Part shown: positions 5,724 through 52,638 of the stretch, piece by piece
Layout of the letters: each line of letters starts with the position of its first letter
Position numbering within the stretch: position 1 is the first letter of the stretch
Assembly (NCBI GenBank): GCA_029351405.1
Contig: GCA_029351405.1_4841.1
Origin: Escherichia coli
GTDB lineage: Bacteria > Pseudomonadota > Gammaproteobacteria > Enterobacterales > Enterobacteriaceae
Direction: 5' to 3' (one strand)
DNA: 64,000 nt
Position numbers and translations under genes: made by a program
Notes under the pieces: generated by a model
Seen by the model: the letters and a program-made list of their open reading frames with translations, nothing else
Databases searched by the model: none
What the model was told of the DNA's origin: nothing

Positions 5724-5731
5724 AATCTAGT

Positions 5732-5739
5732 CCTAAATA
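5732..5739 (+). promoter_or_regulatory. late-promoter-like box (CCTAAATA) upstream of baseplate gene
   Basis: TAAATA core 34 nt upstream of ATG at 5774, same spacing as exact TATAAATA boxes elsewhere in window. Confidence 0.35.
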
Positions 5740-5773
5740 GCCATAACACTCTATCTATTTAAGGGCTGAGACC

Positions 5774-6742
5774 ATGGCCGACTTCAAGAAGACAATCGAT
5801 AAGATCAAGGTTCTGAACACGAAGGGATTGTCCCAGGCTCAGAAGCAATTGTCTTATCCCCTGGACGTTACTGGGGGTAAAACCTTGGGACACTATGTCC
5901 TATTCAACATCAACCGCATCTCCGGTTCATCTTATGGCAACACGGCTACTCAGACTATCGAGAACCCAATACAGAACCCTCTGGGGAATACTCCTGTGGT
6001 CTATGGGTCCAAGTCTGGTTCCATCACCAAATATGCATGGGCGCGTCACGTTCGTTCAAACGAATCTATTGTTCTGTGTATGCCGGAGTCCATTACAACC
6101 AACTATGGCGTTGGCTGGAACGGTAGCGAGCTGGGGCTGGCTGGTATGGGGGCACAGTTCCTTTCCCGCGCCGCCCAAGACATGACTCAGTTTAAACTGG
6201 GTGATGCGCTCAACGTCGGGAAGGAGATGGGGAGATTCGCTGCCACCAAGGCTATCCAATCTGCGTCGGAGGCTATTCCATTCCTGCCGAGCATTAACGC
6301 CCATGACACCCTTGAGTTGTTCACAGGCACCATGACCAACCCATATGTGGAGATGATCTTCCAGGGTGTACGCAACCGTGAGATTCCATTTACATTCAAA
6401 TTCACGCCGCGATCTCAGAAGGAAGCCAAGATGGTCCGTGAGATCATCCGCATGTTCAAGATGCACATGTACCCAGAGTACAAGTACAACAAGAACTCCA
6501 GTGCCTTCTATCTGCATCCATCGACCTTTGATATCACGTTCATGGTCAATGGTGAGCGTAACCAATGGCTCCACCGCATCTCCACCTGCGTGCTGTCCAA
6601 CATGTTCGTCAACGAAACGCCGGACAGTTCATATGCAGTACACAAGGATGATGGGATCGTATCTACACAGGTTGACATGACCTTCATCGAACTGGAGCCT
6701 CTGCATAAAGGGCGCTTTGAAACCGAAGGCGATAGCTTCTAA
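5774..6742 (+). CDS. baseplate / tail-tube-associated structural protein (gp48/gp54-like, tentative)
   Basis: 322 aa, first gene of a plus-strand structural operon ending in a tape-measure-like gene; family call tentative. Confidence 0.4.
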   Translation: MADFKKTIDKIKVLNTKGLSQAQKQLSYPLDVTGGKTLGHYVLFNINRISGSSYGNTATQTIENPIQNPLGNTPVVYGSKSGSITKYAWARHVRSNESIVLCMPESITTNYGVGWNGSELGLAGMGAQFLSRAAQDMTQFKLGDALNVGKEMGRFAATKAIQSASEAIPFLPSINAHDTLELFTGTMTNPYVEMIFQGVRNREIPFTFKFTPRSQKEAKMVREIIRMFKMHMYPEYKYNKNSSAFYLHPSTFDITFMVNGERNQWLHRISTCVLSNMFVNETPDSSYAVHKDDGIVSTQVDMTFIELEPLHKGRFETEGDSF

Positions 6743-8704: not shown

Positions 8705-10651
8705 ATGGCACAGGAAGCAACGAACAATGATGTTGTCAAAGTTCTAGACAAGATCAAGGCGGAGATGATGCAGCGCAAACAACTCCGCGCTCAGAATGAA
8801 ACCAACAGACAGCTTGATCGGATGAACAAGAATCTGGCCAAGCTGGAATCTGCCACTAAACAGGACACCAAGGCCGAGTCCAAGCCATTTGAAATCCGTA
8901 TCCCGACAGTCAATGAGATCGTCATGGGATTCGCTCGCATGTCTCCGATCTTCACCCGCGACTTCAGCGTATGGATGAAGGATACTGTCGATGTGGGTAA
9001 CGAAGGCAATCGGGAACTGGAGAATATCACAGGCAAGATTGACCGCCTCGGTGAGATCACCCGCATGCCAACAGATGACACGTCCCTGGAGTATCTTAAC
9101 CTGATCTCAGACCAGCTGAAGTCTGCCAATGATGACACCCTCAAGCGCATGGACGAGCAGAGTGTGTCTCTGGTCCGCGTGGGATCATTCTTGAACATGA
9201 TCGACGGAGTGATGATCGAGGTTCGTGACGATGTTGCTGAACTGAAAAGGAACTCCGATGACACCCTTACTCGCTTGTCTAGCATTGAAAACAAGATTGG
9301 GCGCACGGGCGGTCATATCGTTGGAGTTCTGACACGCATCTTTGATGAAGACCAGAAGTGGCGTGAGAAGGACGAGATGCGCCGTGGGGAAACCGACAAA
9401 GAAACGGGTGGTCATCCTCAGGCGGGTTCTGTTATACCCAAAGACGATGACCAGAAAGACGATTCCTCCGGTATCGGGGCGGCGGTGGCGGCCATGCTTG
9501 GCCTGAATGCACTGAAGGGCTTCTTGCTCAAGCCGTTCAAGATCATCGGTGGTGTTGTCGGGACTTTCCTCGGCATGTTCTCCAAGCTGGGAGAAGGTAT
9601 CACCAAACTTCTGGGTCCATTTGGGAAGGTGTTCAAGTTCCTGAAAGTCGGCCCACTGGCTCTCCTGTCTATGATCTGGGACTTCGGTAAAGGCTTCATT
9701 GATGCGAAGGAGATCCTGGGTAAAGGTGCTGTCACGATAGTTGACCGAGTACGGGCGGGGATATCAGAACTGGTTGGTGGATTTGGTGATCTATTTGACT
9801 GGGTGTCCAAGATCTTTGGCTTTGATACCAAAGCGGGTGAAACCCTGCGCAAATACACCCTCATGATCACTGAGGCTCCCGCTCGTTGGCTGAATGGTAT
9901 TATCGACTGGATTAGCAACGACTTGTTTGCAGGGATCGGGAGAGACACGTCTCTTACGGATATCCCTGGCAAGTTAGCAGACAACCTACAGTCCGAGTTG
10001 ATGAAGCTGGTAGACTGGATCACAGGGGGTATCAGTAGTGTGATCGACGAGGGCATGGGTGTGGCCAACAAGGTTATTGACGAAATCAAGAAGGGATTTG
10101 CCGAAAATGTGAAGAAACCTTTCTTCAACATGCTGAACACAATCACTAATGCGATGTTCGATATCGTTGACAAGTTCGTCAGCATCATCCCTGACGCTCT
10201 GGGTGGACAGGCTGCGAAGCAGAAGATGGATGAGGCTCGCCAGTCTATGCTGATTGACACTGATGGGAATCCGTCTCCTAATGTGACAGAGACCCAGCAG
10301 CCACAGACGCCAGCACAACCGAACATTGATACACAAACGCTGACTCCAATACCTTCTGGTGTGTCTTCAGATTACAAGAATATGACTAATGACCGCACCT
10401 CTCAGCTGAAAGCTGCGTATGGTTCTATCGGGGGTGGTACTCTGGGCGGGGCCATGCCATCACAAGGGAGGGCGCTGTCTAATATCGAGCAAGTACAAGG
10501 CGGCTATTCACCGCCTCCAGCCAGCGTCGTGATGCCAGTACAGCAGAATGTGGATGCTTCTAAGAGGATCAACACGACCAATAACTTCAACAGCTCATCT
10601 CTTGAGCCTGAGAACAAAACAGATAATTCCCGCATCCTGTGGGAATGGTAA
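8705..10651 (+). CDS. tail tape-measure / baseplate hub protein (gp29-like)
   Basis: 648 aa; N-terminal coiled-coil-rich region, central Gly-rich hydrophobic segment (GIGAAVAAMLGLNALKGFLL...), Q/N/T-rich C-terminus. Confidence 0.5.
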   Translation: MAQEATNNDVVKVLDKIKAEMMQRKQLRAQNETNRQLDRMNKNLAKLESATKQDTKAESKPFEIRIPTVNEIVMGFARMSPIFTRDFSVWMKDTVDVGNEGNRELENITGKIDRLGEITRMPTDDTSLEYLNLISDQLKSANDDTLKRMDEQSVSLVRVGSFLNMIDGVMIEVRDDVAELKRNSDDTLTRLSSIENKIGRTGGHIVGVLTRIFDEDQKWREKDEMRRGETDKETGGHPQAGSVIPKDDDQKDDSSGIGAAVAAMLGLNALKGFLLKPFKIIGGVVGTFLGMFSKLGEGITKLLGPFGKVFKFLKVGPLALLSMIWDFGKGFIDAKEILGKGAVTIVDRVRAGISELVGGFGDLFDWVSKIFGFDTKAGETLRKYTLMITEAPARWLNGIIDWISNDLFAGIGRDTSLTDIPGKLADNLQSELMKLVDWITGGISSVIDEGMGVANKVIDEIKKGFAENVKKPFFNMLNTITNAMFDIVDKFVSIIPDALGGQAAKQKMDEARQSMLIDTDGNPSPNVTETQQPQTPAQPNIDTQTLTPIPSGVSSDYKNMTNDRTSQLKAAYGSIGGGTLGGAMPSQGRALSNIEQVQGGYSPPPASVVMPVQQNVDASKRINTTNNFNSSSLEPENKTDNSRILWEW

Positions 10652-11311
10652 TCAGATTCCGTGGGCTTGTATTAGCTCACGGAGTCTCTGTTTTGAATAT
10701 GTGGTATCCTCATCCGGAACCACAGCATTCGTCTTCCTGAGCAAGAACGCCTCTGAGTTCCAGTAGATGTCATCACGCAGAATCGTATCGTATAGATGAA
10801 TGAAACCAACGATCTTGTTCAGACCGACAAGGAACCAAATCGGGAACTTCTTGATGATGATGTCTGTCAGCAACGGTGGATGGCCTGTACCCGTCCCCTT
10901 GATGTACTCAATGAAGGTGCAGTTGCGCTCCCTTATGGCAGGAATCATCTCCCGCTCGAACTCCTCAAGGAAGTTATATGTGAAGTTCTCGTACAGCTTA
11001 CGGTATTCATCATAATTGGCCTGAGCCTGGCGTGTAAGCAATGTCGTCACCCAGGTCTTGGGTGATTTGATGAAGTTGGCAATGATGTAGTTCTCTACCA
11101 CTTCACCCTGTGTTGACTCGAACCGACGGGCAAGGCGAGCAAACTGTTTGCACACGGCCTCCTTCGCCAAGAACGTCTCGAACTTGTAATTCATCGGTCC
11201 ATACAAGCTGTAATCGAAGTCCTTAGTGGTGAAGTGCAGCTTGATCGCCATGAAGACACAGTAAACGTTGAACGCTCGCTCGAACTCCATCTTCTGCCAC
11301 TCTGTTAGCAT
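10652..11311 (-). CDS. helicase loading protein, gp59-like (putative)
   Basis: 219 aa; residue pattern recalled as similar to T4 gp59 N- and mid-regions (Y.....IK.H...K.D, IIANFIKSPKTW). Confidence 0.45.
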   Translation of the reverse strand: MLTEWQKMEFERAFNVYCVFMAIKLHFTTKDFDYSLYGPMNYKFETFLAKEAVCKQFARLARRFESTQGEVVENYIIANFIKSPKTWVTTLLTRQAQANYDEYRKLYENFTYNFLEEFEREMIPAIRERNCTFIEYIKGTGTGHPPLLTDIIIKKFPIWFLVGLNKIVGFIHLYDTILRDDIYWNSEAFLLRKTNAVVPDEDTTYSKQRLRELIQAHGI

Positions 11312-31945: not shown

Positions 31946-33556
31946 ATGTTAGACAATATGAGATGGTTTTACGGCACCGTTGAAGATGTCAACGATCCAG
32001 ACCAAAACGGGCGCGTCGCCGTCCGCATCTATGGCGTACACACCGACGATCCCGTCCTCCTGCCTACGGACAAACTCCCATGGGCGAAGGTACTGATGCC
32101 TGCTTCAAACGCCTCCTCTGCTGGTTTAGGTTGGTCTCCAACGGGTATCATTCCTGGTACTGAGGTTATGGGGTTCGCCCTTGACGAAGCATACCAGAAT
32201 TTACGCATCACCTGGACTTGGACTGGTTCAAGTCCTACTGATGGTGCCGACACAAACCCACTGGCTCTCGGGCAGGTCGTTCAATCTGTGGAACGTCAGG
32301 CGTACAACGCCGTCACTGACGTTCCTGTGAAACAAGAAGACGAACCACAACCAGATCCACAACCACCTGTTGGCGGGTATGATCCAGAGAAGTGGATGAC
32401 AATCGCGCGTGGTGAATTGGGTATCAAGGAGTACGCCGGAAAGTTCAACAACAACCCGCGCATTATAGAATATCACAAGACAACCTCCCTTGGTGCTTCT
32501 GAAGATGAAGTGTCGTGGTGTGCGGCGTTCGTGGGTTGGGTTATGATACAGGCTGGATACACGTCTACGCGCTCCGCTCTTGCCCGATCTTACCTTACAT
32601 GGGGTACTGCACTGTCAGCACCACAATATGGCGCTATCGTAGTCTTCCGGCGTGGTAACAACCCCACATTTGGACACGTAGCGTTTGTGCAGAAGTTCGA
32701 TGCAAACTATGTCTGGTGTATTGGTGGCAACCAATCCGATTCAGTGAAGGTTAGTCGTTTCAGACGTTCTTCGGTCTTGGGATATCGTTGGCCTGGTCCT
32801 GCTAACACAGCCACAGCCGCGCCTGCGCAGCAGAATGGTAAATGGTCAGAACCTATCCCAGATCGTACTCCAAAGGAACAACCGACTCCGGCTCCTACTG
32901 GGCGAGTACAGGATATTGACAACACTGGAGAAACCATGGTTCCGGCTGCGGGTGGATCTAAATACCCGTACAATAACGTCATGGTGTCCCGAGCTGGGCA
33001 TATTATGGAAGTGGATGACACCCCTGGCGGTGAACGTCTTCACTGGATGCATAAGTCTGGGTCTTACAAGCAAATGTTGCCGGATGGTGATGTGGTCAAC
33101 AAGTCCGTCAAAGACCACTATGACCTGACGATGTTCAACAAGCGTTATTATGTCGGCGGGGACCACAACCTGACGGTCAAAGGAACTGAAGTTCAGCGCA
33201 AGACAGGTGAGGTCTATCATTTGCATTCCAACAATTACTCCAACGTGGTTGCGGGCACAGCGCTGATGAAATTCAGTGACCTAGCTGAGTTTCAAGCACA
33301 GAATATTCTGCGCATTATCTGCGAGACTCTGGAGGTCGGCGGGACATTGAAGGTTCCTAAGATTCTAACGACTGAGATCATCGCTGACAAACTGACTGTC
33401 GCTCAGACGATCAATGGTAACATCATATATGCCGAAGGTGCTGGTCGCGCTTCTTCTCTGTCGGGTGCAACCCCTGCATCCCCTACGGGTCCGGGTGAGA
33501 TTGACATCAAGGCAGAATTAAAAGACAATGGTGGTAATTTCGGCACCAAAGAGTAA
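31946..33556 (+). CDS. baseplate hub / cell-puncturing protein (gp5-like) with NlpC/P60-type peptidase-like domain
   Basis: N-terminal gp5-type OB-fold signature (WFYGTVEDVNDPDQNGRVAVRIYGVH); central domain (GYDPEKWMTIARGELGIKEYAGKFNNNPRIIEYH ... SWCAAFVGW) resembling TIGR02594-type cell-wall hydrolases; C-terminal beta-helix-like region. Confidence 0.7.
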   Translation: MLDNMRWFYGTVEDVNDPDQNGRVAVRIYGVHTDDPVLLPTDKLPWAKVLMPASNASSAGLGWSPTGIIPGTEVMGFALDEAYQNLRITWTWTGSSPTDGADTNPLALGQVVQSVERQAYNAVTDVPVKQEDEPQPDPQPPVGGYDPEKWMTIARGELGIKEYAGKFNNNPRIIEYHKTTSLGASEDEVSWCAAFVGWVMIQAGYTSTRSALARSYLTWGTALSAPQYGAIVVFRRGNNPTFGHVAFVQKFDANYVWCIGGNQSDSVKVSRFRRSSVLGYRWPGPANTATAAPAQQNGKWSEPIPDRTPKEQPTPAPTGRVQDIDNTGETMVPAAGGSKYPYNNVMVSRAGHIMEVDDTPGGERLHWMHKSGSYKQMLPDGDVVNKSVKDHYDLTMFNKRYYVGGDHNLTVKGTEVQRKTGEVYHLHSNNYSNVVAGTALMKFSDLAEFQAQNILRIICETLEVGGTLKVPKILTTEIIADKLTVAQTINGNIIYAEGAGRASSLSGATPASPTGPGEIDIKAELKDNGGNFGTKE

Positions 33557-39647: not shown

Positions 39648-40442
39648 TTAACTGAAACTCTTGTATGCTGCTGCGAGCTTCGTGTCGTACTGGTTCTTGG
39701 CATACGCCGGACCATTATAGCGCCGCGCAAACTCAGCCCAGTTCTTGTCCTTCAGAGCCTGCCAGAGCTTGGCGTCAGCCTTGATGAACTTCACGAATGC
39801 CATCAAATGAGCACGTTCTCCTGTCAGGAAGTCGTTGAACATCTCCTTGGCGTTGGCATATCCACAGACCTGGCAGTTGAATCCCATGATCTGGAAGAGA
39901 CCGTAAGAGGCGCTCTCGTACGCACAATCCTCGTCGATGTTGATCGCTGCATGAAGTCGATCCAACTCCGCGTCGCCGCCCGTGTACCCGCCTGCGGAAG
40001 GGCTGACCAACGTCGGGTACATATGTCCCATGGCATTCGCCCGAGCCTGTCCGAACTTCGCCATCAGCTTCTTATACATGATGTGGCGCTCAAATAATGT
40101 CTTGATCTTACCTGATTTGGTGAAGCCCGTGCCGCGCGACTCAACCTGATTCACCGCCTTGACAGAGGCAAGGTCAACACCCAGATCGTTAGCAGCATCA
40201 ATCAGGTCTGACTCAGTTAGATGATCCTGATGGGCGTCTCCGGCGTTGCGAATAGCATAGGAGGTCTTTGGACCCACGATACCATCAATGACAAGTCCCG
40301 CACCCGCCTGAACCGTCTTGACGGCGTTCTCTGTTACCTTGCCAAAGATACCATCAGCGACGAGGGTGAAGCCGATTTTGTTGAGGCTATTCTGAAGTGC
40401 CTTCACTTCAGTGCCACGGTTGCCAAGTTTTAGAATGGCCAT
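39648..40442 (-). CDS. endolysin: peptidoglycan-binding domain plus N-acetylmuramidase-like catalytic domain
   Basis: N-terminal PG_binding_1-like repeat (LKLGNRGTEVKALQNSLN ... DGIFGKVTENAV ... DGIVGPKT); C-terminal domain with EYESASYGLFQIMGFN-type motif; start at Met with GGAGG ribosome-binding site. Confidence 0.7.
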   Translation of the reverse strand: MAILKLGNRGTEVKALQNSLNKIGFTLVADGIFGKVTENAVKTVQAGAGLVIDGIVGPKTSYAIRNAGDAHQDHLTESDLIDAANDLGVDLASVKAVNQVESRGTGFTKSGKIKTLFERHIMYKKLMAKFGQARANAMGHMYPTLVSPSAGGYTGGDAELDRLHAAINIDEDCAYESASYGLFQIMGFNCQVCGYANAKEMFNDFLTGERAHLMAFVKFIKADAKLWQALKDKNWAEFARRYNGPAYAKNQYDTKLAAAYKSFS

Positions 40443-43688: not shown

Positions 43689-44258
43689 CTAGACAGGCTT
43701 AACACCGAGGAACTTGGCAATGTCAGCAGCCAGGTTTTTACCCTTGCTGATATCATGCTCCTTGCCGTTGCAGGTGACGATCACATACGGGTCATCTTCA
43801 CCACCGAAGTTCACGGTGATCGCCTTGCCGATGCCAGGGATGCCAGAGTATTCGAACTCAGTACGACCACTCTTGCGAGACTTGCCAGCACCCAGTGCTT
43901 TACCGATCATCTTGTCCATGTTCGCCAGTTCCTGAGCATAGGATTCGGTCACCTGGCCTTTGTCGGCAGACTTGCCAAAGAAGAATTCGAAGCCGTCATG
44001 GACAGCAACGACTTCCTGACCTTGGGAAATACCGTGAGTCTGATCCGGAGTCAGCTTCACCTTGATGGTGTTGCCGTTGGTTAACTCCAGGTTGTAGACA
44101 TCCGCCTGATTGTCAGGAGTGATCTGGGTCACGGTAGCGCCGGAACACCACTGGGTGCCGTCAGCTTGCTTGGTGATGGATACGGTCTTACCCTGGACAC
44201 CAGCATGGGTCTGAGGTTTAGCGGCTTGTTCTTTAAAATATTCGATAAACGGTTTCAT
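43689..44258 (-). CDS. late-expressed protein (probable virion component)
   Basis: 189 aa ORF with GAGGAG ribosome-binding site, 25 nt downstream of exact TATAAATA box. Confidence 0.5.
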   Translation of the reverse strand: MKPFIEYFKEQAAKPQTHAGVQGKTVSITKQADGTQWCSGATVTQITPDNQADVYNLELTNGNTIKVKLTPDQTHGISQGQEVVAVHDGFEFFFGKSADKGQVTESYAQELANMDKMIGKALGAGKSRKSGRTEFEYSGIPGIGKAITVNFGGEDDPYVIVTCNGKEHDISKGKNLAADIAKFLGVKPV

Positions 44259-44282: not shown

Positions 44283-44290
44283 TATTTATA
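44283..44290 (-). promoter_or_regulatory. T4-type late promoter (TATAAATA)
   Basis: Exact TATAAATA on minus strand between GC hairpin and ribosome-binding site of 43689..44258. Confidence 0.55.
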
Positions 44291-44314: not shown

Positions 44315-47300
44315 TCAGATCTTAATCTGCATGTTGCCACCCAGGGACTGCTCGTACTCGCTGTATGCGCCTTCCCCGTAGTCTCGTGCCCACTGGTCAG
44401 ACTGCTGGGCGCTATCCAGAGTCATCAGGTTTGGTTCAGTCGGGTTGTAACCCTTGGACTTCGCATCCCGGTACAGAGTCTGCAGGTACTGGTTGGCGCG
44501 GTCAATCTGAGCTTTGAACTCGCGATATGCCCCTTCAGTTGTGTTGCGGCGGAAGGTGATATCCCAGTCCACGTTCAGAGTCTGGCCATCACGGCTTGCA
44601 TAGATCTGCCAATCCAGGTCGCGACCTTTTGGTGCGTTGTCGCGGATGGAGTCGGCGTATGCCGCAAGGTCGACACCAGTCTTCTTCGCAGTACTCGACT
44701 CTTTCTCCAGTCTCTCGGTTTCTTTGGACAGGATACCCAACATAAATTCATTAGTGCGGCGATCCGCCATGTCGTACCCGCGCCAAAGGACTGAACCGTT
44801 GTTGTCAACAGAAATGTCGTCCAAAAATACTTGTTTCGGATTATGCGACGTGCTTTTCAGAGTTTGCATATTCCGAGATATCATTTCCATATTAGAAGAA
44901 ATTTCATCGATCAATGCCTGAACAATGTCTTTCTTCAAAGGAAGTTCATATGTCTTCGGATTGTTCAGCAGCCGCCCTTTCTGGGAGATCATCGGTGTGA
45001 ACGCGACTTTTCCTTTGTCGTAGTAATAGGTCACATTCGTGGTCAATACAGCACCATCATACTTCCCAGTTTTCGGGAAATTGACGCCAGACCAAGTGAT
45101 GGACATACCGTTGACAGTCTCACCAAACACCATGGCGTTGCTTGGCATCTTCAGGGTTCCAGAGTTGACCAGATCAGCGCCTTGGGCATTCAGGTCGATA
45201 GAACCATAGATGGCCCCGGTAATACGATCTTTCAGCATCAGGGTCTTGTCGCCCTTCTCTGGGATGATTTCCAGCGGGTGCTTGCCACGCGGAGGCTCTT
45301 TGATGAGTTCCAGCAGAGCAGTGTTCCCAGGCTTCACACGATTCAGGACAGCGTCGGACACTGTCAGAGTCCAGTTTGCGGTTTCCACATAACCCCAGCC
45401 CCGAGAACGGCGAATGGCTTTGATAGGATATGGAGCGCTTGTTGGAACTGCGCTAATTTCCCATTTGCCAGTGTACTGGGTCTTGGCAACCTCAAAGATG
45501 GACGCAATTACCGCATTGGCGACGTCACGGGCGCTACCTTTGGCCACGCTCTCCTCTTCAGCAATTTCGCTGAAAACTGAGTATTGAACGAAACCAGCGA
45601 GGACGTTTGTGAAGTTGACAACGATAACCAACCCGCCTGCCGTCGTGTAACGACCAGCGCCCACGCGACGGATGTTTTCACCAGGAAGAATAGAAGTGTC
45701 CAGCCCAACGTTGGTATCAATGATACCCAGAACACGAGCGATGAAACCGCTGTCACGTAATTGATCAACACTGGTTGCACCCTCGGTCGAATCCGATGCG
45801 GATTTAGACACTTTGTTCAACTTGATAGAGACAAGAGTTTCCCCGTTGACACCGATGATATCCCATTCAGTACCCTGCTCGTTCGAGATGCGGGCAATCT
45901 TGCGCTTTGAATTGATGGCACCTTCGTAACGCCCGTTTTTGACCACAACAGAGGCAGTAGCAGCATCAGTAGCACTTGCTGCATTTGAAAAGTCTGGGTC
46001 AGAAATACTGATGTCGACGTCACCGTTTTGAGAACGCATGCGAACACCGTTTTTGAATCGTTCCACGTTTACTTCTCGAGCACCAAGTCGTTTGGCATCA
46101 ATAACAGCAGTTCCAGAACCGATAATGTTGGCTGGGTTATTTCTGTCTGAACTGTTTTGAGAACCTTTCCAAAATTTTGTGGACGCTGTGGTGAAATCAT
46201 TCAGGATACTGATAGGGACTTGTGGTAATTTCAACTGACGAGCAATGAAATCAGCACTTTGCCCACGCACAGGTTTCTCATTCATGTATGCGCCAACATA
46301 CACGCCCGGCTCATTGTAGTGGGGAGCGATATTTGCCGTGACTAAGCGACCTTTTTCTTTCCCCGCCCACACTAACATTGGTTGAGTGGCATCGGCTTTT
46401 GTGAGTTTCCAACCGTTGTCATTGCTGGTGTCATTGCTGGTGTCATTGCTGGTGTCAACGTCCACCACCAGAATTATCTGAGCACCTTTCTTGAAAGTGT
46501 ACTGATCGTACATGCCTTTCTTCTGTTTGGTCATGGACGCACCGACCAAGTCTTGGTTGGTGAAGCCGCGCTTCATATTCCAAGATACCTCAGTCCCGTC
46601 TGGATATTTGTCAAAATCATAACCATAGAATGCGGCTACTTCTTTCGAACCGCTTATCAGGCGGACGTAGTTTCCACGAATCGGGTCTCGCCCGCTCTTC
46701 AACTCCAGACCAGTGTCCGAGCTGTTGTACCACTCGCGGTTGACTTCGATTTCAGAAGAACCAGCCCCAACTCCCACATCCGAAGTATTATTCTGAACCG
46801 GAACGTCGCCGACCTTGTCTGGATCATCCCAGGTGATACCCTGCATCTTCGGACCGTCGAATACCTGAGCCGGATCTTTACCCTTGCGGACCAGCCACAC
46901 ATAACCACGGTCAGGGACAGGCGCGTAGGTCAGGTCCATGACATTCAGTTTCTGTTTCAGACCGGACTGGCGGATAATCTTAGGAATCAGGGTCATACCG
47001 CGATCCAGTGCTTTCTTGGAGAAGTTGACAGCAAAGCCATCGATGGTCTTGCCCAGAGGAGTCGCCATGAATTGTTTGGTCGCTTCGATCATGCTGGCAA
47101 TAACGCGCATTGGGTTCTTGAAGCGAGCGATGGCGTCAGGATAGACGGAGCCGCGCTTCTGGCCGATGAAAACCTGACGAACGCTCTTGCCCAGCCCCTG
47201 AGGGGTATAGAACTGAATACGGTATTCCTTTTCATCTTCGTCGACGAAGGTGAAGAACACATCGCCTGCGTTCTTCTTACCCATGGTCAGCTCATACGGA

Positions 47301-47368
47301 GCGGAGTTGAACGCTTCGTCCAACTGATCTCTTTCCTGCATGAACTGGAGGAAACTTAGCTTTGACAT
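44315..47368 (-). CDS. large hypothetical protein (1017 aa; possible virion structural or ejected protein)
   Basis: Long uninterrupted ORF with AGGAG ribosome-binding site; contains DTSN x3 repeat; lies upstream of a late gene; no catalytic motif recognised. Confidence 0.6.
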   Translation of the reverse strand: MSKLSFLQFMQERDQLDEAFNSAPYELTMGKKNAGDVFFTFVDEDEKEYRIQFYTPQGLGKSVRQVFIGQKRGSVYPDAIARFKNPMRVIASMIEATKQFMATPLGKTIDGFAVNFSKKALDRGMTLIPKIIRQSGLKQKLNVMDLTYAPVPDRGYVWLVRKGKDPAQVFDGPKMQGITWDDPDKVGDVPVQNNTSDVGVGAGSSEIEVNREWYNSSDTGLELKSGRDPIRGNYVRLISGSKEVAAFYGYDFDKYPDGTEVSWNMKRGFTNQDLVGASMTKQKKGMYDQYTFKKGAQIILVVDVDTSNDTSNDTSNDNGWKLTKADATQPMLVWAGKEKGRLVTANIAPHYNEPGVYVGAYMNEKPVRGQSADFIARQLKLPQVPISILNDFTTASTKFWKGSQNSSDRNNPANIIGSGTAVIDAKRLGAREVNVERFKNGVRMRSQNGDVDISISDPDFSNAASATDAATASVVVKNGRYEGAINSKRKIARISNEQGTEWDIIGVNGETLVSIKLNKVSKSASDSTEGATSVDQLRDSGFIARVLGIIDTNVGLDTSILPGENIRRVGAGRYTTAGGLVIVVNFTNVLAGFVQYSVFSEIAEEESVAKGSARDVANAVIASIFEVAKTQYTGKWEISAVPTSAPYPIKAIRRSRGWGYVETANWTLTVSDAVLNRVKPGNTALLELIKEPPRGKHPLEIIPEKGDKTLMLKDRITGAIYGSIDLNAQGADLVNSGTLKMPSNAMVFGETVNGMSITWSGVNFPKTGKYDGAVLTTNVTYYYDKGKVAFTPMISQKGRLLNNPKTYELPLKKDIVQALIDEISSNMEMISRNMQTLKSTSHNPKQVFLDDISVDNNGSVLWRGYDMADRRTNEFMLGILSKETERLEKESSTAKKTGVDLAAYADSIRDNAPKGRDLDWQIYASRDGQTLNVDWDITFRRNTTEGAYREFKAQIDRANQYLQTLYRDAKSKGYNPTEPNLMTLDSAQQSDQWARDYGEGAYSEYEQSLGGNMQIKI
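46418..46453 (-). repeat. 12-nt tandem repeat x3 (GTCATTGCTGGT on plus strand) encoding DTSN-DTSN-DTSN
   Basis: Three perfect consecutive copies read directly in sequence, in-frame within the 1017-aa CDS. Confidence 0.8.
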
Positions 47369-47443
47369 TTTATATCTCCTGATTGAATTAACGGCGATTT
47401 CTTCTAATTAGCGAAACCAAAAGGGAGCGTCAGCCCCCTTATC

Positions 47444-47779
47444 TTATTTTTGAACTTGGGCTACAGACATCGCCCAGAGCGGGAGGGTGTGGGGGTCCAG
47501 GGCTTCCAGTAGATATTCGACGCGCTCTGACATGATACCTTCAGGGAAGTTTACTTCTTCTGGTTCGTTGTTGGCCGTCCAACCCAAGGTCAGTCCTTCA
47601 GCGTGATGGATGATATAAACGAAGTCGCCCGATTCGTAGTCCTTTTCCATCAGGTCGAAGAACGCTTCCATTTCTTCGTCGGAGAAGTAGTAGATGCGAG
47701 GTACGGAGCCGTCAGCAAAGTGTTCAGCACCCTGGAAGGCAAACATGTCATCGGCGGTGAAGTTCTTGAGTTGTGTCAT
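47444..47779 (-). CDS. hypothetical protein
   Basis: Start at Met inside AGGAACTATATCATG cassette; acidic; followed by hairpin and T-tract. Confidence 0.45.
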   Translation of the reverse strand: MTQLKNFTADDMFAFQGAEHFADGSVPRIYYFSDEEMEAFFDLMEKDYESGDFVYIIHHAEGLTLGWTANNEPEEVNFPEGIMSERVEYLLEALDPHTLPLWAMSVAQVQK

Positions 47780-47801
47780 GATATAGTTCCTTCGGTTCAA
47801 A

Positions 47802-48077
47802 TTAACGGCGGAAAGGGCGGTTTGCGTTTTCGCGGTTAGACCAATTCTTTTCAGCCCGAGCGATAGCCGCTGGACTCCATTCGCGCTCCCACTCTTTGTC
47901 TACTTCAGCCTGGTTGGCAGGCTCTACCATTTCAACGCCAGGGAAGTCGCATGACATGATTTCGCGCAGCTGGGCAGCTGGGGCGGTCTGGGCGTGGATC
48001 AATTCTTCGCCGTCGTAAACCTTGGCCATCAGGTATTTCTGACCGTGGCGGATATATGCGTCGAGGATAATTTTCAT
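47802..48077 (-). CDS. hypothetical protein
   Basis: Start at Met inside AGGAACTACACCATG cassette. Confidence 0.45.
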   Translation of the reverse strand: MKIILDAYIRHGQKYLMAKVYDGEELIHAQTAPAAQLREIMSCDFPGVEMVEPANQAEVDKEWEREWSPAAIARAEKNWSNRENANRPFRR

Positions 48078-48192
48078 GGTGTAGTTCCTGCTTTTCAAGT
48101 TGGTGTTGTACTGCTTATGGAATGAAGTATAGGGAAGGATATTGAAGAAGTAAAGGGGCGAAAGCCCCTTTTATTGAATTATTTTTACGGCG

Positions 48193-48822
48193 TCAGCTCA
48201 CAACCGGAATGTGGGATCGAATACCTGCGATGATGTCCTTCAGCTGAGGCTTCCATCCACCCACCAAACGGGGTAGAGCGATAGCACCAGGCTGGACCAA
48301 AATGATGTCGCTGCCTGTGATATTGTGCTGAGGGAACTGGGCGAGGTACTGCTCCATTGTGACACCCTCATCAATCAGAACCGCACCGACGTCAGACGAT
48401 GCGTAGGTTGCACCCAGACCGTCAACGCCCCATGCCAAGATGCCCCAGTCAGGGATGTTGGCTTCAGATGTGATGGTGAATCCAAACACGGTGTTCAGCG
48501 ATGTAAAGGAGTAGACATCGTGGGTGAGGTCATGCACCAGATACCCCTTGGCCAGCATATCGGCAAAGATCGCGTCTGTATCGCCAGCAGCCGGAGTCGG
48601 CACAGTAAACAACAGCTCACCCTCAGGAGGAGCAGGGTATGTTCTGAGGGCATAGAGGCACCATGCGTCAATACACTTCTTGATAAATGCCTCTGGTGCG
48701 ACATAATCGGCAAGGCGAACCGTGCCTGAGTACTCGGATACGATGATGCCTTCCTTCGCGCCCTGTAGAGCGATGAAGACCAAGATATGTTCATATCCGG
48801 TCTGAGATGGAGTGATGTTCAT
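48193..48822 (-). CDS. hypothetical protein
   Basis: Start at internal Met (MNITPSQ) overlapping upstream stop; no motif. Confidence 0.45.
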   Translation of the reverse strand: MNITPSQTGYEHILVFIALQGAKEGIIVSEYSGTVRLADYVAPEAFIKKCIDAWCLYALRTYPAPPEGELLFTVPTPAAGDTDAIFADMLAKGYLVHDLTHDVYSFTSLNTVFGFTITSEANIPDWGILAWGVDGLGATYASSDVGAVLIDEGVTMEQYLAQFPQHNITGSDIILVQPGAIALPRLVGGWKPQLKDIIAGIRSHIPVVS

Positions 48823-49436
48823 TATCTTGTCCTCTTCAGTTTCTCTATCGTGTGCTTGTTCATGGCGATCACCCGAGGATCTACCTCGGAGATGGTCCGG
48901 CCTTTGAAGGACACACATTTCTGAAGATATTTAGCTTTCTTCACGACGTCAGCGGCATAAGCGTTCGATGCAGGATTACGGGCAAAGCCAGCATTGTAAG
49001 AGGAGAGGGATTTGCGGATATTCTGATTGTGATAGGTCAGCCAGAACTGCATCTCATCGAGGGCGGCTTGCGCGGCATATTCTTGGTCGGTCAGCAACTT
49101 TATGGCGACATTGGCATAGCACTTGCGATTCTTACAACCTTCGCGATCACCAACTGTCTTCACCTTGTTCTGAAAGGCTCCCATGTTGGCCGCCTTGAGG
49201 CCGTATCGCATTGACACTACATCTTCGCCAGCGCGGCTCTCACGCCAAGATATGGCGGCCAGAGTGTAGCCAAGATCTTGTGTCTTGCCCACGTGATAGG
49301 CGGTTGCCATCGTATTAAGTTGTTGCTCGGAGAAATTATAAACACATTGGCTTGTATTTTGGGAAGCGTGCACATTCCCGCTGGCAATGGTAAAGGTCAC
49401 GGACAAGGCCATGGCCTTCAACGTTGTCATCGTCAT
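48822..49436 (-). CDS. exported lytic transglycosylase (SLT-domain) with signal peptide
   Basis: N-terminal signal peptide (MTMTTLKAMALSVTFTIASGNVHA); SLT catalytic motif AISWRESRAGEDVVS ... GAFQ and later YNAG motif. Confidence 0.55.
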   Translation of the reverse strand: MTMTTLKAMALSVTFTIASGNVHASQNTSQCVYNFSEQQLNTMATAYHVGKTQDLGYTLAAISWRESRAGEDVVSMRYGLKAANMGAFQNKVKTVGDREGCKNRKCYANVAIKLLTDQEYAAQAALDEMQFWLTYHNQNIRKSLSSYNAGFARNPASNAYAADVVKKAKYLQKCVSFKGRTISEVDPRVIAMNKHTIEKLKRTR

Positions 49437-49534
49437 GATGGCGTTCCTTATGTTTTGTCGACTTGCAGCTCGCTTGAGCCTCCTGACAGGGGGTTAAAAG
49501 ATAAAGGGCACGTGATATTTAGTGCCCTTCAGCC

Positions 49535-49819
49535 TCATTCGTAGATGAGGTGGTAGGATTCCTCGATACACTCCAGCCAGCCGTAGACGAACTGTAGAGG
49601 GTCATCCCATGCCGTCTTGGTCGCGACGGTAAAGTTGCCGTCCAGGATCTGCATATCTTGGTACTTGTTGAAAGCGAGTACAGCATCAACCACAATCAGA
49701 CCGCCCTGCTCAAGATAACGATTCGGAGTGACGGTCACTTGGTAATGAGGATTCCTGCGATTCCATATCTCCACAGCAATGTCACAGGATTCCTGAATTT
49801 CATCTTTGTTTTCTGACAT
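49535..49819 (-). CDS. hypothetical protein
   Basis: 94 aa ORF. Confidence 0.4.
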   Translation of the reverse strand: MSENKDEIQESCDIAVEIWNRRNPHYQVTVTPNRYLEQGGLIVVDAVLAFNKYQDMQILDGNFTVATKTAWDDPLQFVYGWLECIEESYHLIYE

Positions 49820-50129
49820 ACGTTTGTCTCAGATGTTCGGTAAAGGATTTACCCAGCTTGCGGAATAGTTTAATACGACCAATGACTTTGACGTAAACAT
49901 CTCCGTGGCAGGGGCGCGGCTTACACCAGCACCCCAATACCTTCCCGTCAAGATCAAGGAGTTCATCCTCAGTGATATCCCCTTCAATCAGGCGCACATA
50001 CAGGTCGTCCTCAAACAGTTCGATACAGACGCCTCGTCCATGGTCTTTGACCTCAAACGGGTTTCCCCATTTACCAGGCCGACCAATGTAGACGTCATAT
50101 GGCTCCTTCTTGAAGTGGACGACTTTCAT
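49800..50129 (-). CDS. DUF4326-like conserved protein
   Basis: Pattern YIGRPGKWGNPF ... GCWCKPRPCHGD recalled as characteristic of DUF4326. Confidence 0.45.
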   Translation of the reverse strand: MKVVHFKKEPYDVYIGRPGKWGNPFEVKDHGRGVCIELFEDDLYVRLIEGDITEDELLDLDGKVLGCWCKPRPCHGDVYVKVIGRIKLFRKLGKSFTEHLRQTYVRKQR

Positions 50130-50290
50130 TTCAGGATTTGACCTGCAAGTAGATAACAGAACCAGACAGAGAACCCGAGATACCCCAGTGCTTTCAGGTA
50201 GTTTTTCCTTTCGACTTCACGAGAAAACGCAACGATGTCAATGATGCATGCAAAGACCAGGATTGCGAGTTTAATTTGTTCGTAGTTCAT
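50127..50290 (-). CDS. micro-ORF encoding small membrane peptide (about 52 aa)
   Basis: ATG with AAGGA ribosome-binding site just after gp46 stop; hydrophobic product; stop overlaps next start; not in ORF track. Confidence 0.3.
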
Positions 50291-50292
50291 GA

Positions 50293-52638
50293 TCAATCCT
50301 TATTGATAACTTCGGTCAGGCCGTTGCGCAGGCCATAGCGAATATTGTGTTGGAAGTATTCCTGGAACTCCTGCTCACGCTGGCTGATGACAAACAGGTT
50401 GTTCCCGCCGAACTTATGCTTCAACATCTCAACCGATTCCTGCACCCCGCGCTCGCTCATGTTCTCAAGGATCTCGTCCAGCACGAACAGGTTACATTGT
50501 ACAGACGCCTTGAGGTTAGCCACATCGCGCAGGGCTAATGTCACAGCCAGGTTCAGACGACTGCGCTGACCAGTAGACAGGGAGAAGATACTCTGTCCTT
50601 TGCGGCCTGCTGCGCTCATGGTGATCTCAAAGGTATCGTCAACAACGATGTCCAAGAACATGTTGAGGGCTTCAAGATACTCGTTGATCTTGCTATTGAG
50701 GAATGGCAGATACAGGGCGATGATACGCGCCTTGGTCTGGTCATCTTTCAAGAAGAACAGCAGGTGCTGTAAGTCCTGGAGTTCCTGGTCGGCATCCTCG
50801 CGGCGCTGGTATAGATCCTCCAGTTCACCCTCCAACGCAGCGATAGAGTTCTCTAGGTCGGTGGTAGGTGTTGGCTGTACAGCCAGTTTACGCTCCAGAT
50901 CGGCAATAGACGCCACGAGAGGAGCACGACGGGCTTTCAGCTCGGCGATCTTATCATCGACGGCTTTAATCCCGCTGACGGCATTCTCTCGCGTTTGTTG
51001 TAGTGACGCAGTGATGTCTTCAAAACGAACGTTCAGTGCCTTGCGGATGTCAAGGATCTTCTGTTGGCATTCACGGTTCAGCGAATTACACTCAATCGTG
51101 GCGGCATCATGAAAACCTTGAATATCACGGCGCAGCTGCTTGATGTTGTCAACGATTTCGTCGGCCTGCTTGCGCATTGCATCCAGTTCAGCATCCAACA
51201 CAGCAATGTCAGCAACCAGCTTGTCGTCCTGGGCTTTGTGGTCATCGATCAGGACATTGATATCGGCGGTAACTTTGTCCAGTTGATCTAACTTCGACTG
51301 CAGTTCCTGGATCTGAGGATTGTACTCGCTTTCAATACGCGCCTTGGTGTCATCAGACACTAGTTGGGTACATGTTGGGCAAGTCCCCATGTCGTGGAAG
51401 CGCTTGATGGCCGACTGATGCCCATCCATTTCGGTCTGGAACTTGATACGGAAGTTTTCACCCTGTTGACGGCGCTGGATAGCAGCGTTCAGGGCGTCCA
51501 GGTTTGTGTTGCGCTCGGTGAGCAGAGTGTTCTTGCGTTCGGCCACTGTAAAGGCGCGGTCACGCAAGACCTGAAGATCATGCTCCGCAGTAGACACTTC
51601 GATGCGCTCATAATCGTCAGCCTTGTCCTGCGCGGCGTCCTTCACCGCCTGGATCTTGGTATCAAAGTCTTTCTTGACAGCCTCGATCTCCACCATGGAT
51701 TCATCATGCAGGCGGCTTTCTACCGTCTTCATTTCCTGGCTGGCTTCGAACTCAACCGCAGCGAGACGGGTGCGCTCTTCATTCTGGGAAGCGATGTCAG
51801 CATCCAGGGCATTCAGGGCTTCCTGTTGCTGTACAAGGATATCGGCCGACTGCTGTTGGATCAGGGCGTTGGATTGCTCGATCTGCTGAAGCTGCGTCTT
51901 CTTGTTGGTGTGGTCAACAACCTTCAGTGCGCATTCGTTAGATATAGAGTCCAGAGTTGCATTTGTCCTTTTGATGGCGGCCTTGACATCTTCGTTCATC
52001 AGGCTGAAGAAGCCCAAGTCCCAGATAGTCTCCACCATCGCGCGGCGGTCGGCTGTGTACATCTCCGTGAACGGAATGAACTTCTCTTTACCCAGCACCA
52101 GAGAGTTCTCAAACATCTTCTGGTCCACGCCGATGAGATTCACGATGTACTTGTTCATGTCGGCTTTGGCTGCTTCGTTATCGATCTGCAACCACTTGCC
52201 GTCCACCATCTGGTAGACTTCAACAAAGTCAGGTTTAATGCCACGGCGAACCTTCCATTCGCTACCACGGCAGGCAAACTCCACCTCACCCACACATTCC
52301 TTGCGGCTTTGTGAGTTAACCAGGCCTGCCTTCTTCTCCTTCTTGCTGTATGTGTCGTTGTACAGTACGAAAAACAGCAGCCATACCAACATCGTGGATT
52401 TACCCGCGCCGTTGTCATCAGACGTGACAAGGGTGGCCGGGTTGCGCTGATAATCAATCTCCATGAACTGATTGCCGATGGAGCGGAAGTTCTTGGCGCG
52501 GCCTTTGCGGAAGGTCAGTTTGTGTGTAACAACGTTACGCACTTCAAATGGGACTTCAACCTCGACCGGGGCGTCGGCTTCCTTCAAAAGATTACCAAAT
52601 TTGGTCAAGATATCTGTGCTCTGAGTCATGTTATGCAT
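50293..52638 (-). CDS. recombination endonuclease subunit (gp46 / SbcC / Rad50-like ATPase)
   Basis: Walker A GAGKST, long coiled coils with CPTC zinc hook, ABC signature LSTGQRSRL, Walker B LFVLDE. Confidence 0.8.
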   Translation of the reverse strand: MHNMTQSTDILTKFGNLLKEADAPVEVEVPFEVRNVVTHKLTFRKGRAKNFRSIGNQFMEIDYQRNPATLVTSDDNGAGKSTMLVWLLFFVLYNDTYSKKEKKAGLVNSQSRKECVGEVEFACRGSEWKVRRGIKPDFVEVYQMVDGKWLQIDNEAAKADMNKYIVNLIGVDQKMFENSLVLGKEKFIPFTEMYTADRRAMVETIWDLGFFSLMNEDVKAAIKRTNATLDSISNECALKVVDHTNKKTQLQQIEQSNALIQQQSADILVQQQEALNALDADIASQNEERTRLAAVEFEASQEMKTVESRLHDESMVEIEAVKKDFDTKIQAVKDAAQDKADDYERIEVSTAEHDLQVLRDRAFTVAERKNTLLTERNTNLDALNAAIQRRQQGENFRIKFQTEMDGHQSAIKRFHDMGTCPTCTQLVSDDTKARIESEYNPQIQELQSKLDQLDKVTADINVLIDDHKAQDDKLVADIAVLDAELDAMRKQADEIVDNIKQLRRDIQGFHDAATIECNSLNRECQQKILDIRKALNVRFEDITASLQQTRENAVSGIKAVDDKIAELKARRAPLVASIADLERKLAVQPTPTTDLENSIAALEGELEDLYQRREDADQELQDLQHLLFFLKDDQTKARIIALYLPFLNSKINEYLEALNMFLDIVVDDTFEITMSAAGRKGQSIFSLSTGQRSRLNLAVTLALRDVANLKASVQCNLFVLDEILENMSERGVQESVEMLKHKFGGNNLFVISQREQEFQEYFQHNIRYGLRNGLTEVINKD

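What the first reader, a model, noticed from the sequence alone, without database searches (positions are those of the whole stretch)
48822..49436. Second, signal-peptide-bearing cell-wall enzyme separate from the endolysin
A 204-aa protein carries a cleavable signal peptide and SLT-domain lytic transglycosylase motifs (ES...GAFQ, YNAG). It is encoded far from the endolysin (39648..40442). A Sec-exported transglycosylase may act from the periplasm during infection, as an entry-associated or cell-wall remodelling enzyme, rather than in holin-dependent lysis.
Basis: partly seen in the sequence, partly recalled or inferred. Interest (0 to 1): 0.45.

Follow-up and report, generated by a model that had tools for sequence, protein, structure and literature searches.

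The report
Exported Vs.1-type lytic transglycosylase
This phage gene encodes a small cell-wall-cutting enzyme with an export signal; it is the counterpart of the long-known but still unexplained T4 gene vs.1, so it is a real feature but an ordinary member of a known family.

Summary
ORF 48822..49436 (-) encodes 204 aa with a signal-peptide-like N-terminus (predicted cut VHA24|S25) and the motifs E66-S67, G86-A-F-Q89, S146-Y-N-A-G150 and Y160. E66, G86, Y147, G150 and Y160 are invariant in 79 diverse homologues.

It is not a new kind of enzyme. The window is an Ackermannviridae (Agtrevirus-like) phage, and the protein is the orthologue of T4 Vs.1 (PHROG 600, E 3.5e-59). About 2,090 phage records and about 1,500 50%-identity clusters hold relatives. 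The SLT likeness of Vs.1 was published by 2006.

Export is well supported: 73 of 79 homologues have a hydrophobic leader, and cysteines co-vary in pairs. An entry role is poorly supported. The phage has its own gp5-type hub enzyme with a CHAP domain. One virion proteome detected the orthologue (31 spectra) and another did not.

T4 vs.1 has early RNA, is non-essential and is 'Semi-Fit' on knockdown. Its role remains unknown.

In passing: a roughly 200-nt block covering the 5' leader and the signal-peptide codons is far more conserved than its surroundings, including at synonymous sites.

The parts
48822..49436 (-). CDS of the 204-aa Vs.1-type exported lytic transglycosylase (stop codon included)
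   Evidence: ORF listing. PHROG 600 E 3.5e-59. 32% identity, E 1e-18 to T4 Vs.1. 97.9% nt identity to Escherichia phage A221 across 47400..50300, which contains the gene.
49365..49436 (-). Codons 1-24: predicted Sec signal peptide, with cleavage predicted after VHA24
   Evidence: Heuristic n/h/c-region analysis, and leaders in 73 of 79 homologues. Low pLDDT for residues 1-30. Synonymous sites are frozen: 0 of 21 changed versus 81 of 139 in the mature part.
48912..49331 (-). GH23/SLT-like catalytic domain, residues about 36-175
49239..49241 (-). Codon of Glu66, the predicted single catalytic acid/base (ES motif)
   Evidence: Invariant in 79 of 79 homologues; Ser67 in 77 of 79. Aligned with the ES of EtgA (AIAWNES) in the profile alignment.
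48825..48911 (-). C-terminal basic tail, residues 176-204 (calculated pI 11.0 for residues 175-204); absent from T4 Vs.1
   Evidence: Alignment. pI calculation. Modelled as two short helices with high confidence.
49496..49529 (-). Intrinsic-terminator-like hairpin (AAGGGCAC, 10-nt loop, GTGCCCTT) plus TATCTTTT, between the upstream 94-aa ORF and the gene
   Evidence: Read directly from the sequence. Present in the MFE fold. Conserved across genera. Missed by the scanner because the loop exceeds 8 nt.
49346..49564 (-). Exceptionally conserved nucleotide block: terminator, 60-nt leader, SD, ATG and signal-peptide codons
   Evidence: Identity 88-99% here versus 59-78% in the flanks, across Kuttervirus, Taipeivirus and Limestonevirus. 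Longest stretch at >= 90% identity in the 5.6-kb syntenic region, where the median is 70%. Synonymous-site test P about 1e-8.
48193..48822 (-). Downstream DUF7270 gene (209 aa); its start overlaps the stop of the target by 1 nt (TAATG)
   Evidence: Pfam DUF7270 E 6e-108. Overlap read from the sequence. The LIMEstone1 orthologue ORF085 is a confirmed virion protein.
39648..40442 (-). Canonical endolysin (context only): PG_binding_1 + N-acetylmuramidase, with no hydrophobic N-terminus
   Evidence: Pfam PF11860 E 2.7e-59 and PF01471 E 1.3e-14. Translation.
31946..33556 (+). gp5-type baseplate hub protein with a CHAP domain (context only): the virion's own wall-degrading enzyme
   Evidence: Pfam Gp5_OB E 1.9e-12 and CHAP E 6e-11. 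[quoted passage not shown]

Best explanation
The gene encodes the Ackermannviridae orthologue of T4 Vs.1, a small, soluble, Sec-exported periplasmic enzyme of the GH23 / family-1 lytic transglycosylase type.

**Proposed mechanism.**
- The precursor is exported through Sec, and signal peptidase I cuts after Ala24 (inferred).
- The mature protein of about 20 kDa is basic (calculated pI 9.6). It is predicted to form one or two disulfides in the periplasm, C31-C174 and C101-C106 (inferred from co-variation).
- Glu66 acts as the single acid/base. It cleaves MurNAc-beta-1,4-GlcNAc bonds to give 1,6-anhydroMurNAc ends (inferred from fold and motifs; not assayed).

**Role.** Because it reaches the wall without a holin, it acts separately from the holin/endolysin/spanin pathway. 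It is an accessory, non-essential wall-remodelling or wall-loosening factor. Its anatomy is that of the 'specialised' lytic transglycosylases of secretion systems, such as EtgA and VirB1. The physiological purpose is not known.
For: **Family.** PHROG 600 E 3.5e-59. T4 Vs.1 is 32% identical, E 1e-18, over the whole mature part.

**Active site.** E66, G86, Y147, G150 and Y160 are invariant; S67 and N148 are nearly so. This clade has no conserved second carboxylate in the beta-hairpin: A82 and N84 here, and none at these positions in the T4 sequence. That fits a transglycosylase rather than a lysozyme mechanism.

**Export.** 73 of 79 homologues have a leader. Cysteines co-vary in pairs: 39 sequences have both and 26 have neither, against 14 discordant, for the 31/174 pair; 12 have both, 62 have neither and 5 are discordant for the 101/106 pair.

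**Independence from the lysis cassette.** The gene lies 8.4 kb from the endolysin.

**T4 orthologue.** RNA is early and protein is 'middle' (PMC9697503 supplement). The gene is non-essential in HIDEN-SEQ, with 46 of 52 sites hit. It is 'Semi-Fit' in CRISPRi-ART (PMC11879866 supplement).
Against: - No enzyme assay or localisation experiment exists for any family member that I could find.
- Pfam SLT is just below threshold for this protein, and Foldseek E-values against PDB are weak, 5e-3 at best.
- The signal peptide was judged by heuristics only.
- Expression timing in this phage is unknown. The gene sits behind a terminator-like hairpin with no recognisable sigma-70 or TATAAATA promoter. LIMEstone1 annotators proposed a weak late promoter upstream. 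The coupled downstream gene encodes a virion protein.
- The orthologue was found in one virion preparation.
Confidence: 0.62

Rival explanations
1. It is a genuine virion-associated, entry-assisting glycosidase. It would complement the CHAP peptidase of the gp5-type hub when the tail penetrates the wall.
For: Sajous1 gp211 is 83% identical and syntenic. It gave 31 spectra in CsCl-purified virions, more than the row labelled 'lysozyme' with 20 spectra (PMC10892097 Table 6). The translationally coupled neighbour DUF7270 is a confirmed LIMEstone1 virion protein. Nearby genes (Sajous1 gp214-217) are abundant in virions. The hub enzyme is a peptidase, so a glycosidase would be complementary.
Against: A family-wide export signal and paired cysteines place the protein in the periplasm, away from virion assembly. 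LIMEstone1 virions lacked ORF086. T4 Vs.1 RNA is early and it is not a known virion protein (my knowledge). A basic protein (pI 9.6) released at lysis can stick to particles and be picked up by shotgun MS. Peptide-level data were not retrievable.
Confidence: 0.1
2. It is an auxiliary lysis enzyme of the secreted or SAR-endolysin type. It would accumulate in the envelope in a restrained form and help destroy the wall when the holin depolarises the membrane.
For: It combines an N-terminal export signal with a muralytic domain, as in Sec-dependent endolysins and SAR endolysins (my knowledge). The h-region is rich in Ala, Ser, Thr and Gly. The family was previously proposed to have 'some role in cell lysis' (PMC1524935).
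Against: The uncharged core is only 13 residues, too short for a SAR anchor, and an AXA-type site follows it. The gene is not next to a holin, the endolysin or spanins. The phage has a complete canonical endolysin. T4 vs.1 is transcribed early and is non-essential.
Confidence: 0.15
3. It is not a working enzyme. Instead it would be a peptidoglycan- or protein-binding factor in the periplasm, for example a modulator of host autolysins or a superinfection or lysis-from-without protection factor.
For: The function has been unknown for more than 20 years. This clade lacks the hairpin Asp that 51 of 79 relatives carry at position 82. Motif II is GAFQ or GxxH rather than GLMQ. T4 has other periplasmic early proteins with such roles, such as Sp, Imm and RI (my knowledge).
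Against: The catalytic Glu and all four motif cores are invariant across a very diverged family with mean column identity 19%. That pattern is what selection for catalysis predicts.
Confidence: 0.08

Closest known systems
Bacteriophage T4 Vs.1 (NP_049725, PHROG 600), found across Straboviridae, Ackermannviridae and Felix-O1-like phages
   Same: Same length class, signal-peptide-like leader, ES / G-x-[FY]-[QH] / SYN-x-G / Y motifs, and whole-length homology. Both phages also carry a gp5-type hub enzyme and a separate endolysin (for T4; here).
   Different: The protein here has four cysteines (T4 has none), a 4-residue insertion in the beta-hairpin and a 30-residue basic C-terminal tail. The neighbours differ: T4 has regB and vs, whereas here there is a terminator and conserved leader upstream and a coupled DUF7270 gene downstream.
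Specialised lytic transglycosylases of secretion systems (EtgA of the EPEC T3SS; VirB1, IagB, IpgF)
   Different: The gene is not in a secretion-system cluster and no partner that activates it is known. EtgA's essential hairpin Asp60 aligns with Asn84 here.
Housekeeping family-1 lytic transglycosylases (Slt70, MltC, MltE, MltF; Pfam SLT PF01464; GH23)
Virion-borne phage transglycosylases and lysozymes (T7 gp16, phiKZ gp144/gp181, T4 gp5)
   Different: Those proteins lack export signals, and those that are virion parts are built into tails or cores (my knowledge). This one has a leader and is a free-standing 20-kDa domain.

Membership tests
T4 Vs.1 family (PHROG 600) | Significant full-length match to the family profile | tested here: met
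   E 3.5e-59, residues 7-179 on profile positions 4-176 of 178.
T4 Vs.1 family (PHROG 600) | Direct homology to T4 Vs.1 itself | tested here: met
   BLASTP 32% identity over 165 columns, E 1e-18. T4 vs.1 is listed as phrog_600.
Family-1 lytic transglycosylase / SLT (PF01464, GH23) | Catalytic Glu in an E-S motif at the end of the first core helix | tested here: met
   E66-S67. E is present in 79 of 79 and S in 77 of 79 homologues. Aligned to the ES of EtgA.
Family-1 lytic transglycosylase / SLT (PF01464, GH23) | Motifs II (G-L-M-Q), III (A-Y-N-x-G) and IV (Y) | tested here: met
   GAFQ (G invariant; Q in 28 and H in 45 of 79), SYNAG (Y and G invariant; N in 78 of 79) and Y160 invariant. Motif II is a variant form.
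Family-1 lytic transglycosylase / SLT (PF01464, GH23) | Score above Pfam's gathering threshold | tested here: not met
   20.2 bits against a cut-off of 21.3. 48 of 79 relatives match SLT at E <= 0.01, best 4.8e-10.
Family-1 lytic transglycosylase / SLT (PF01464, GH23) | Lysozyme-like GH23 fold | tested here: met
Family-1 lytic transglycosylase / SLT (PF01464, GH23) | Produces 1,6-anhydroMurNAc products (non-hydrolytic cleavage) | not testable with these tools
   Needs purified protein, sacculi and muropeptide analysis.
Sec-exported periplasmic protein | n-, h- and c-regions with small residues at -3 and -1, and no lipobox | tested here: met
   K7; uncharged core at residues 8-20; V-H-A at -3 to -1; no lipobox. 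Heuristic only, because no SignalP was available.
Sec-exported periplasmic protein | Actual export and cleavage | not testable with these tools
   Indirect support comes from leaders in 73 of 79 homologues and co-varying cysteine pairs.
SAR endolysin | Uncleaved, weakly hydrophobic N-terminal transmembrane domain of about 16-20 or more residues, with the gene in a lysis cassette next to a (pin)holin | tested here: not met
   The core is only 13 residues and is followed by an AXA-type site. The neighbours are DUF7270, DUF4326 and a gp46-like SbcC-type endonuclease (so annotated in related phages), not lysis genes.
Virion-associated peptidoglycan hydrolase | Reproducible presence in purified virions | tested here: inconclusive
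   31 spectra for Sajous1 gp211. Absent from the LIMEstone1 virion list, which instead has the neighbouring ORF085.
RegB endoribonuclease (the name carried by many GenBank records for this gene) | Sequence similarity to T4 RegB | tested here: not met
   BLASTP E 0.5. The name appears to come from the adjacency of regB and vs.1 in T4.

The most novel reading that the evidence does not exclude
The Vs.1-type enzyme would be a protein that matures in the periplasm and still ends up as a functional part of the infectious particle or of the next infection. For example, it could bind virions at lysis, or be co-delivered with the coupled DUF7270 virion protein. Its synthesis would be governed by a dedicated cis-regulatory element, the roughly 200-nt block whose synonymous sites are frozen across genera. 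That would be a new route for equipping virions with a wall-cutting enzyme, and a new regulatory RNA or DNA element in Ackermannviridae.
Probability: 0.1. Interest if true: 0.65.

Novelty: new member of a known kind. Interest (0 to 1): 0.3.

Why it matters
Vs.1 is one of the most widespread phage genes of unknown role: about 2,090 of 50,697 phage records hold a relative. It is one of only five T4 'Semi-Fit' genes of purely unknown function.

Showing that the family is uniformly exported, keeps a complete transglycosylase active site and carries periplasm-type cysteine pairs turns it into a directly testable case. The claim to test is that a phage acts on the host wall from the periplasm well before lysis.

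For genome annotation, it matters that many Ackermannviridae records call this gene 'RegB RNA endonuclease', or start it at an internal Met and so lose the signal peptide. Both are errors.

For this window specifically, nothing sets the gene apart from its many orthologues.

Tried and rejected
- **Single-sequence search of PDB:** only a chance hit, E = 1.
- **NCBIfam:** nothing for this protein or for T4 Vs.1.
- **Rfam on 48000..50500:** nothing.
- **T4-type late promoter TATAAATA:** none upstream of the gene on its strand; the nearest minus-strand copy is at 44283..44290, downstream.
- **Loop motif CTAAATA as a late promoter:** rejected. It is not enriched (5 found, 3.5 expected) and is CTAATTA in Taipeivirus.
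- **LIMEstone1's annotated 'late promoter' upstream:** it falls on CTCATC, next to TATGAATG, which is a poor match.
- **Sigma-70 scan:** no site between the terminator and the ATG.
- **Leader motif as a repeated promoter:** rejected; it is unique in the window.
- **Overall RNA stability of the leader:** not significant, z = -1.3. The alifold structure has no co-variation to test because the block is invariant.
- **Peptide-level virion MS data for Sajous1 gp211:** the stored supplement is truncated.
- **Other Ackermannviridae proteome papers (phiD3, PP35):** uninformative.
- **RegB identity:** rejected.
- **Lipoprotein:** rejected; no lipobox.
- **Truncated gene in Ag3 (129 aa annotated):** rejected. 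The full 204-aa ORF is intact, so only the annotated start is wrong.
- **DUF7270 as a general partner of Vs.1:** rejected. It is absent next to the Vibrio phage K448 homologue and next to T4 vs.1.
- **Phage-only family:** rejected. One homologue lies among ordinary bacterial genes in a Nitrospirota MAG contig.
- **Literature:** no study of Vs.1 localisation or activity was found.

Full report
**1. What is there**

The minus-strand ORF 48822..49436 starts with ATG and encodes 204 aa. An AAGGAA Shine-Dalgarno lies 7 nt upstream of the ATG. The stop overlaps the start of the next gene by one base (TAATG).

The window comes from an Ackermannviridae phage of the Agtrevirus/Limestonevirus type. The segment 47400..50300 is 97.9% identical to Escherichia phage A221 and 94% identical to Shigella phage Ag3. 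The protein is 94% identical to that of Dickeya phage Coodle.

**2. Check of the observation**

All named motifs are present: E66-S67, G86-A-F-Q89 and Y147-N-A-G150. In an alignment of 79 diverse homologues (mean column identity 19%), Q39, E66, G86, Y147, G150 and Y160 are invariant. S67, G70, S146 and N148 are nearly invariant.

The N-terminus, MTMTTLK-AMALSVTFTIASG-NVHA|SQ, has one positive charge, a 13-residue uncharged core and V-x-A before the predicted cut. There is no lipobox. 73 of the 79 homologues have an equivalent hydrophobic leader. No dedicated signal-peptide predictor was available, so this is a heuristic result. It is supported by family-wide conservation and by the low model confidence of residues 1-30 only.

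39648..40442 (-) is PG_binding_1 + N-acetylmuramidase PF11860 without a hydrophobic N-terminus. It lies 8.4 kb away.

**3. What it is**

*Sequence families.* The protein matches PHROG 600 ('unknown function') at E 3.5e-59. It is 32% identical (E 1e-18) to T4 Vs.1, which is itself phrog_600. Pfam SLT scores 20.2 bits, just under the 21.3 cut-off. However, 48 of 79 relatives match SLT, the best at 4.8e-10.

*Solved structures.* A family profile finds the T3SS transglycosylase EtgA as the best solved relative (E 1e-5), with the ES and YNAG motifs aligned. Goose-type lysozymes follow.

*Second carboxylate.* This clade has no conserved second carboxylate in the beta-hairpin. Position 82 is Asp in 51 of 79 relatives but Ala here. 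The position aligned with EtgA Asp60 is Asn84 here. The T4 sequence also has no acidic residue at these positions. That favours a single-Glu transglycosylase mechanism, but it remains an inference.

*Spread of the family.* The family is large: 2,089 phage records, mostly Straboviridae, Ackermannviridae and Felix-O1-like phages, and 1,522 cluster representatives at E <= 0.001. It is not strictly viral. One homologue sits among ordinary bacterial genes in a Nitrospirota MAG contig, and another lies in a 210-kb contig whose neighbouring genes mostly lack any Pfam hit.

**4. Evidence for export**

Besides the leaders, cysteines co-vary in pairs:
- A Cys near position 31 and a Cys near position 174 are both present in 39 sequences and both absent in 26. 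Only 14 sequences are discordant.
- The C101/C106 pair is present together in 12 sequences and absent together in 62, with 5 discordant.

Paired cysteines in a small secreted domain fit disulfide formation in the periplasm. T4 Vs.1 has no Cys, so the disulfides are not essential to the fold.

**5. What is known about the orthologues**

- *Prior publication.* The SLT resemblance of vs.1 was published by 2006, with reference to earlier PSI-BLAST results, and was interpreted as 'some role in cell lysis' (PMC1524935).
- *Timing in T4.* In T4 time-course omics, vs.1 is classed as 'early-RNA_middle-Protein', so the protein is made and detected well before lysis (PMC9697503 supplement).
- *Essentiality in T4.* vs.1 is non-essential by transposon-type mapping, with 46 of 52 sites hit (bioRxiv 10.1101/2025.11.20.689424 supplement). 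It is 'Semi-Fit' on dCas13d knockdown. The authors list it among five Semi-Fit genes of purely unknown function (PMC11879866 supplement).
- *Gaps.* I found no localisation or activity study.

**6. The entry-associated idea**

On first principles, an exported protein is kept apart from virions assembling in the cytoplasm. The phage also has its own gp5-type hub protein (31946..33556) with Gp5_OB and CHAP domains.

There is experimental evidence both ways:
- Salmonella phage Sajous1 gp211 is 83% identical and in the same gene order. It is listed under the wrong name 'RegB site-specific RNA endonuclease' with 31 spectra from CsCl-purified virions (PMC10892097 Table 6).
- In LIMEstone1, the orthologue ORF086 is not among the 39 virion proteins. 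The neighbouring DUF7270 protein ORF085 (22.75 kDa) is (PMC3296691).

The mature enzyme is basic (pI 9.6, with a tail of pI 11). Sticking to particles after lysis is therefore a simple explanation, but it is not shown. The peptide table that could show whether the N-terminus was cleaved is truncated in the stored copy.

**7. Expression signals in this phage**

Upstream of the gene lies a terminator-like hairpin followed by a T-rich run (49496..49529). After it comes a 60-nt leader with no sigma-70-like site and no TATAAATA. The LIMEstone1 record marks a 'late promoter' there, but the sequence is a poor match. Timing in Ackermannviridae is therefore open. Extrapolating 'early' from T4 is an inference.

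**8. Noticed on the way: a conserved nucleotide block**

The block at about 49346..49564 covers the hairpin, leader, SD, ATG and first 25 codons. Its identity to Kuttervirus and Taipeivirus genomes is 88-99%. The rest of the gene is 74-78% identical and the flanking genes are 59-75% identical.

It is the longest stretch at >= 90% identity in the 5.6-kb syntenic region, where the median is 70%.

Among codons with identical amino acids, 0 of 21 in the signal-peptide part carry a synonymous change, against 81 of 139 in the mature part (Vi01; binomial P about 1e-8). The result is similar for four other genomes.

The core is retained even in a relative with only 58% protein identity.

There is no Rfam match, no significant overall fold stability and no second copy in the window. 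Candidate hairpins exist around the AUG and the SD. They cannot be tested by co-variation because the block does not vary. I cannot explain the block. A phage-specific promoter combined with a translational control element is my best guess.

**9. Verdict**

It is an ordinary member of the long-known Vs.1 family and not a peculiarity of this phage.

'Entry-associated' is not supported, although one proteome keeps it alive. The biological purpose remains unknown for the whole family.

**10. Annotation errors seen**

- Many records name this gene RegB or 'RNA endonuclease'. It has no similarity to RegB.
- The Ag3 record starts the gene at an internal Met (129 aa) and places a spurious small ORF over the true 5' end.

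Noticed in passing
window 49346..49564 (minus strand): A roughly 200-nt block covers the terminator hairpin, 60-nt leader, SD, ATG and the 25 signal-peptide codons. It is 88-99% identical across Ackermannviridae genera, while neighbouring sequence is 59-78% identical. Synonymous sites are frozen (0 of 21 changed versus 81 of 139; P about 1e-8). There is no Rfam hit, and the leader motifs tested occur only once in the window. No explanation was found.
   Followed up: partly
window 48193..48822 (-): This DUF7270 gene (209 aa; LIMEstone1 orthologue pI 4.4) starts 1 nt inside the stop codon of the basic transglycosylase (TAATG). Its LIMEstone1 orthologue ORF085 is a confirmed virion protein of unknown role. 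A possible acidic partner of the enzyme was not tested.
   Followed up: partly
window 31946..33556 (+): The gp5-type baseplate hub protein carries a CHAP (peptidase/amidase) domain where T4 gp5 has a lysozyme domain. This phage's entry enzyme is therefore predicted to cut peptide stems rather than glycan strands.
   Followed up: partly
L010 (Sajous1) 9832..10449; L011 (LIMEstone1) 10408..11022; L001 (Ag3) 5425..6039: There is a systematic annotation error in public records. The Vs.1 orthologue is called 'RegB' or 'RNA endonuclease' but has no similarity to RegB. In Ag3 it is started at an internal Met (129 aa instead of 204), which hides the signal peptide.
   Followed up: yes
window 44315..47368 (-) and 43689..44258 (-): A 1017-aa protein (PHROG 3867, no Pfam domain) varies greatly in length between relatives: it is split into ORF081 and ORF082 in LIMEstone1, while the protein at the corresponding position is 573 aa in Ag3 and 795 aa in Sajous1. 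By position, its Sajous1 counterpart appears to be gp214, among the five most abundant proteins in virion MS; this was not tested by comparison. The next gene has an exact TATAAATA late promoter (44283..44290). This looks like an uncharacterised cluster of structural genes.
   Followed up: no
window 48680..48707 (+) and 49420..49445 (+): On the opposite strand there is the best sigma-70-like match of the region (10 of 12) and, about 700 nt downstream, a terminator-like hairpin overlapping the start codon of the gene. Together they would bracket an antisense transcript of the whole gene. The promoter region is not specially conserved, so this may be chance.
   Followed up: no
L007 1943..2617 (Nitrospirota MAG contig): A 224-aa homologue of the Vs.1 family sits among ordinary bacterial genes (MscS channel, aminotransferase, epimerase, MFS transporter). 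The family is therefore not restricted to phages.
   Followed up: partly
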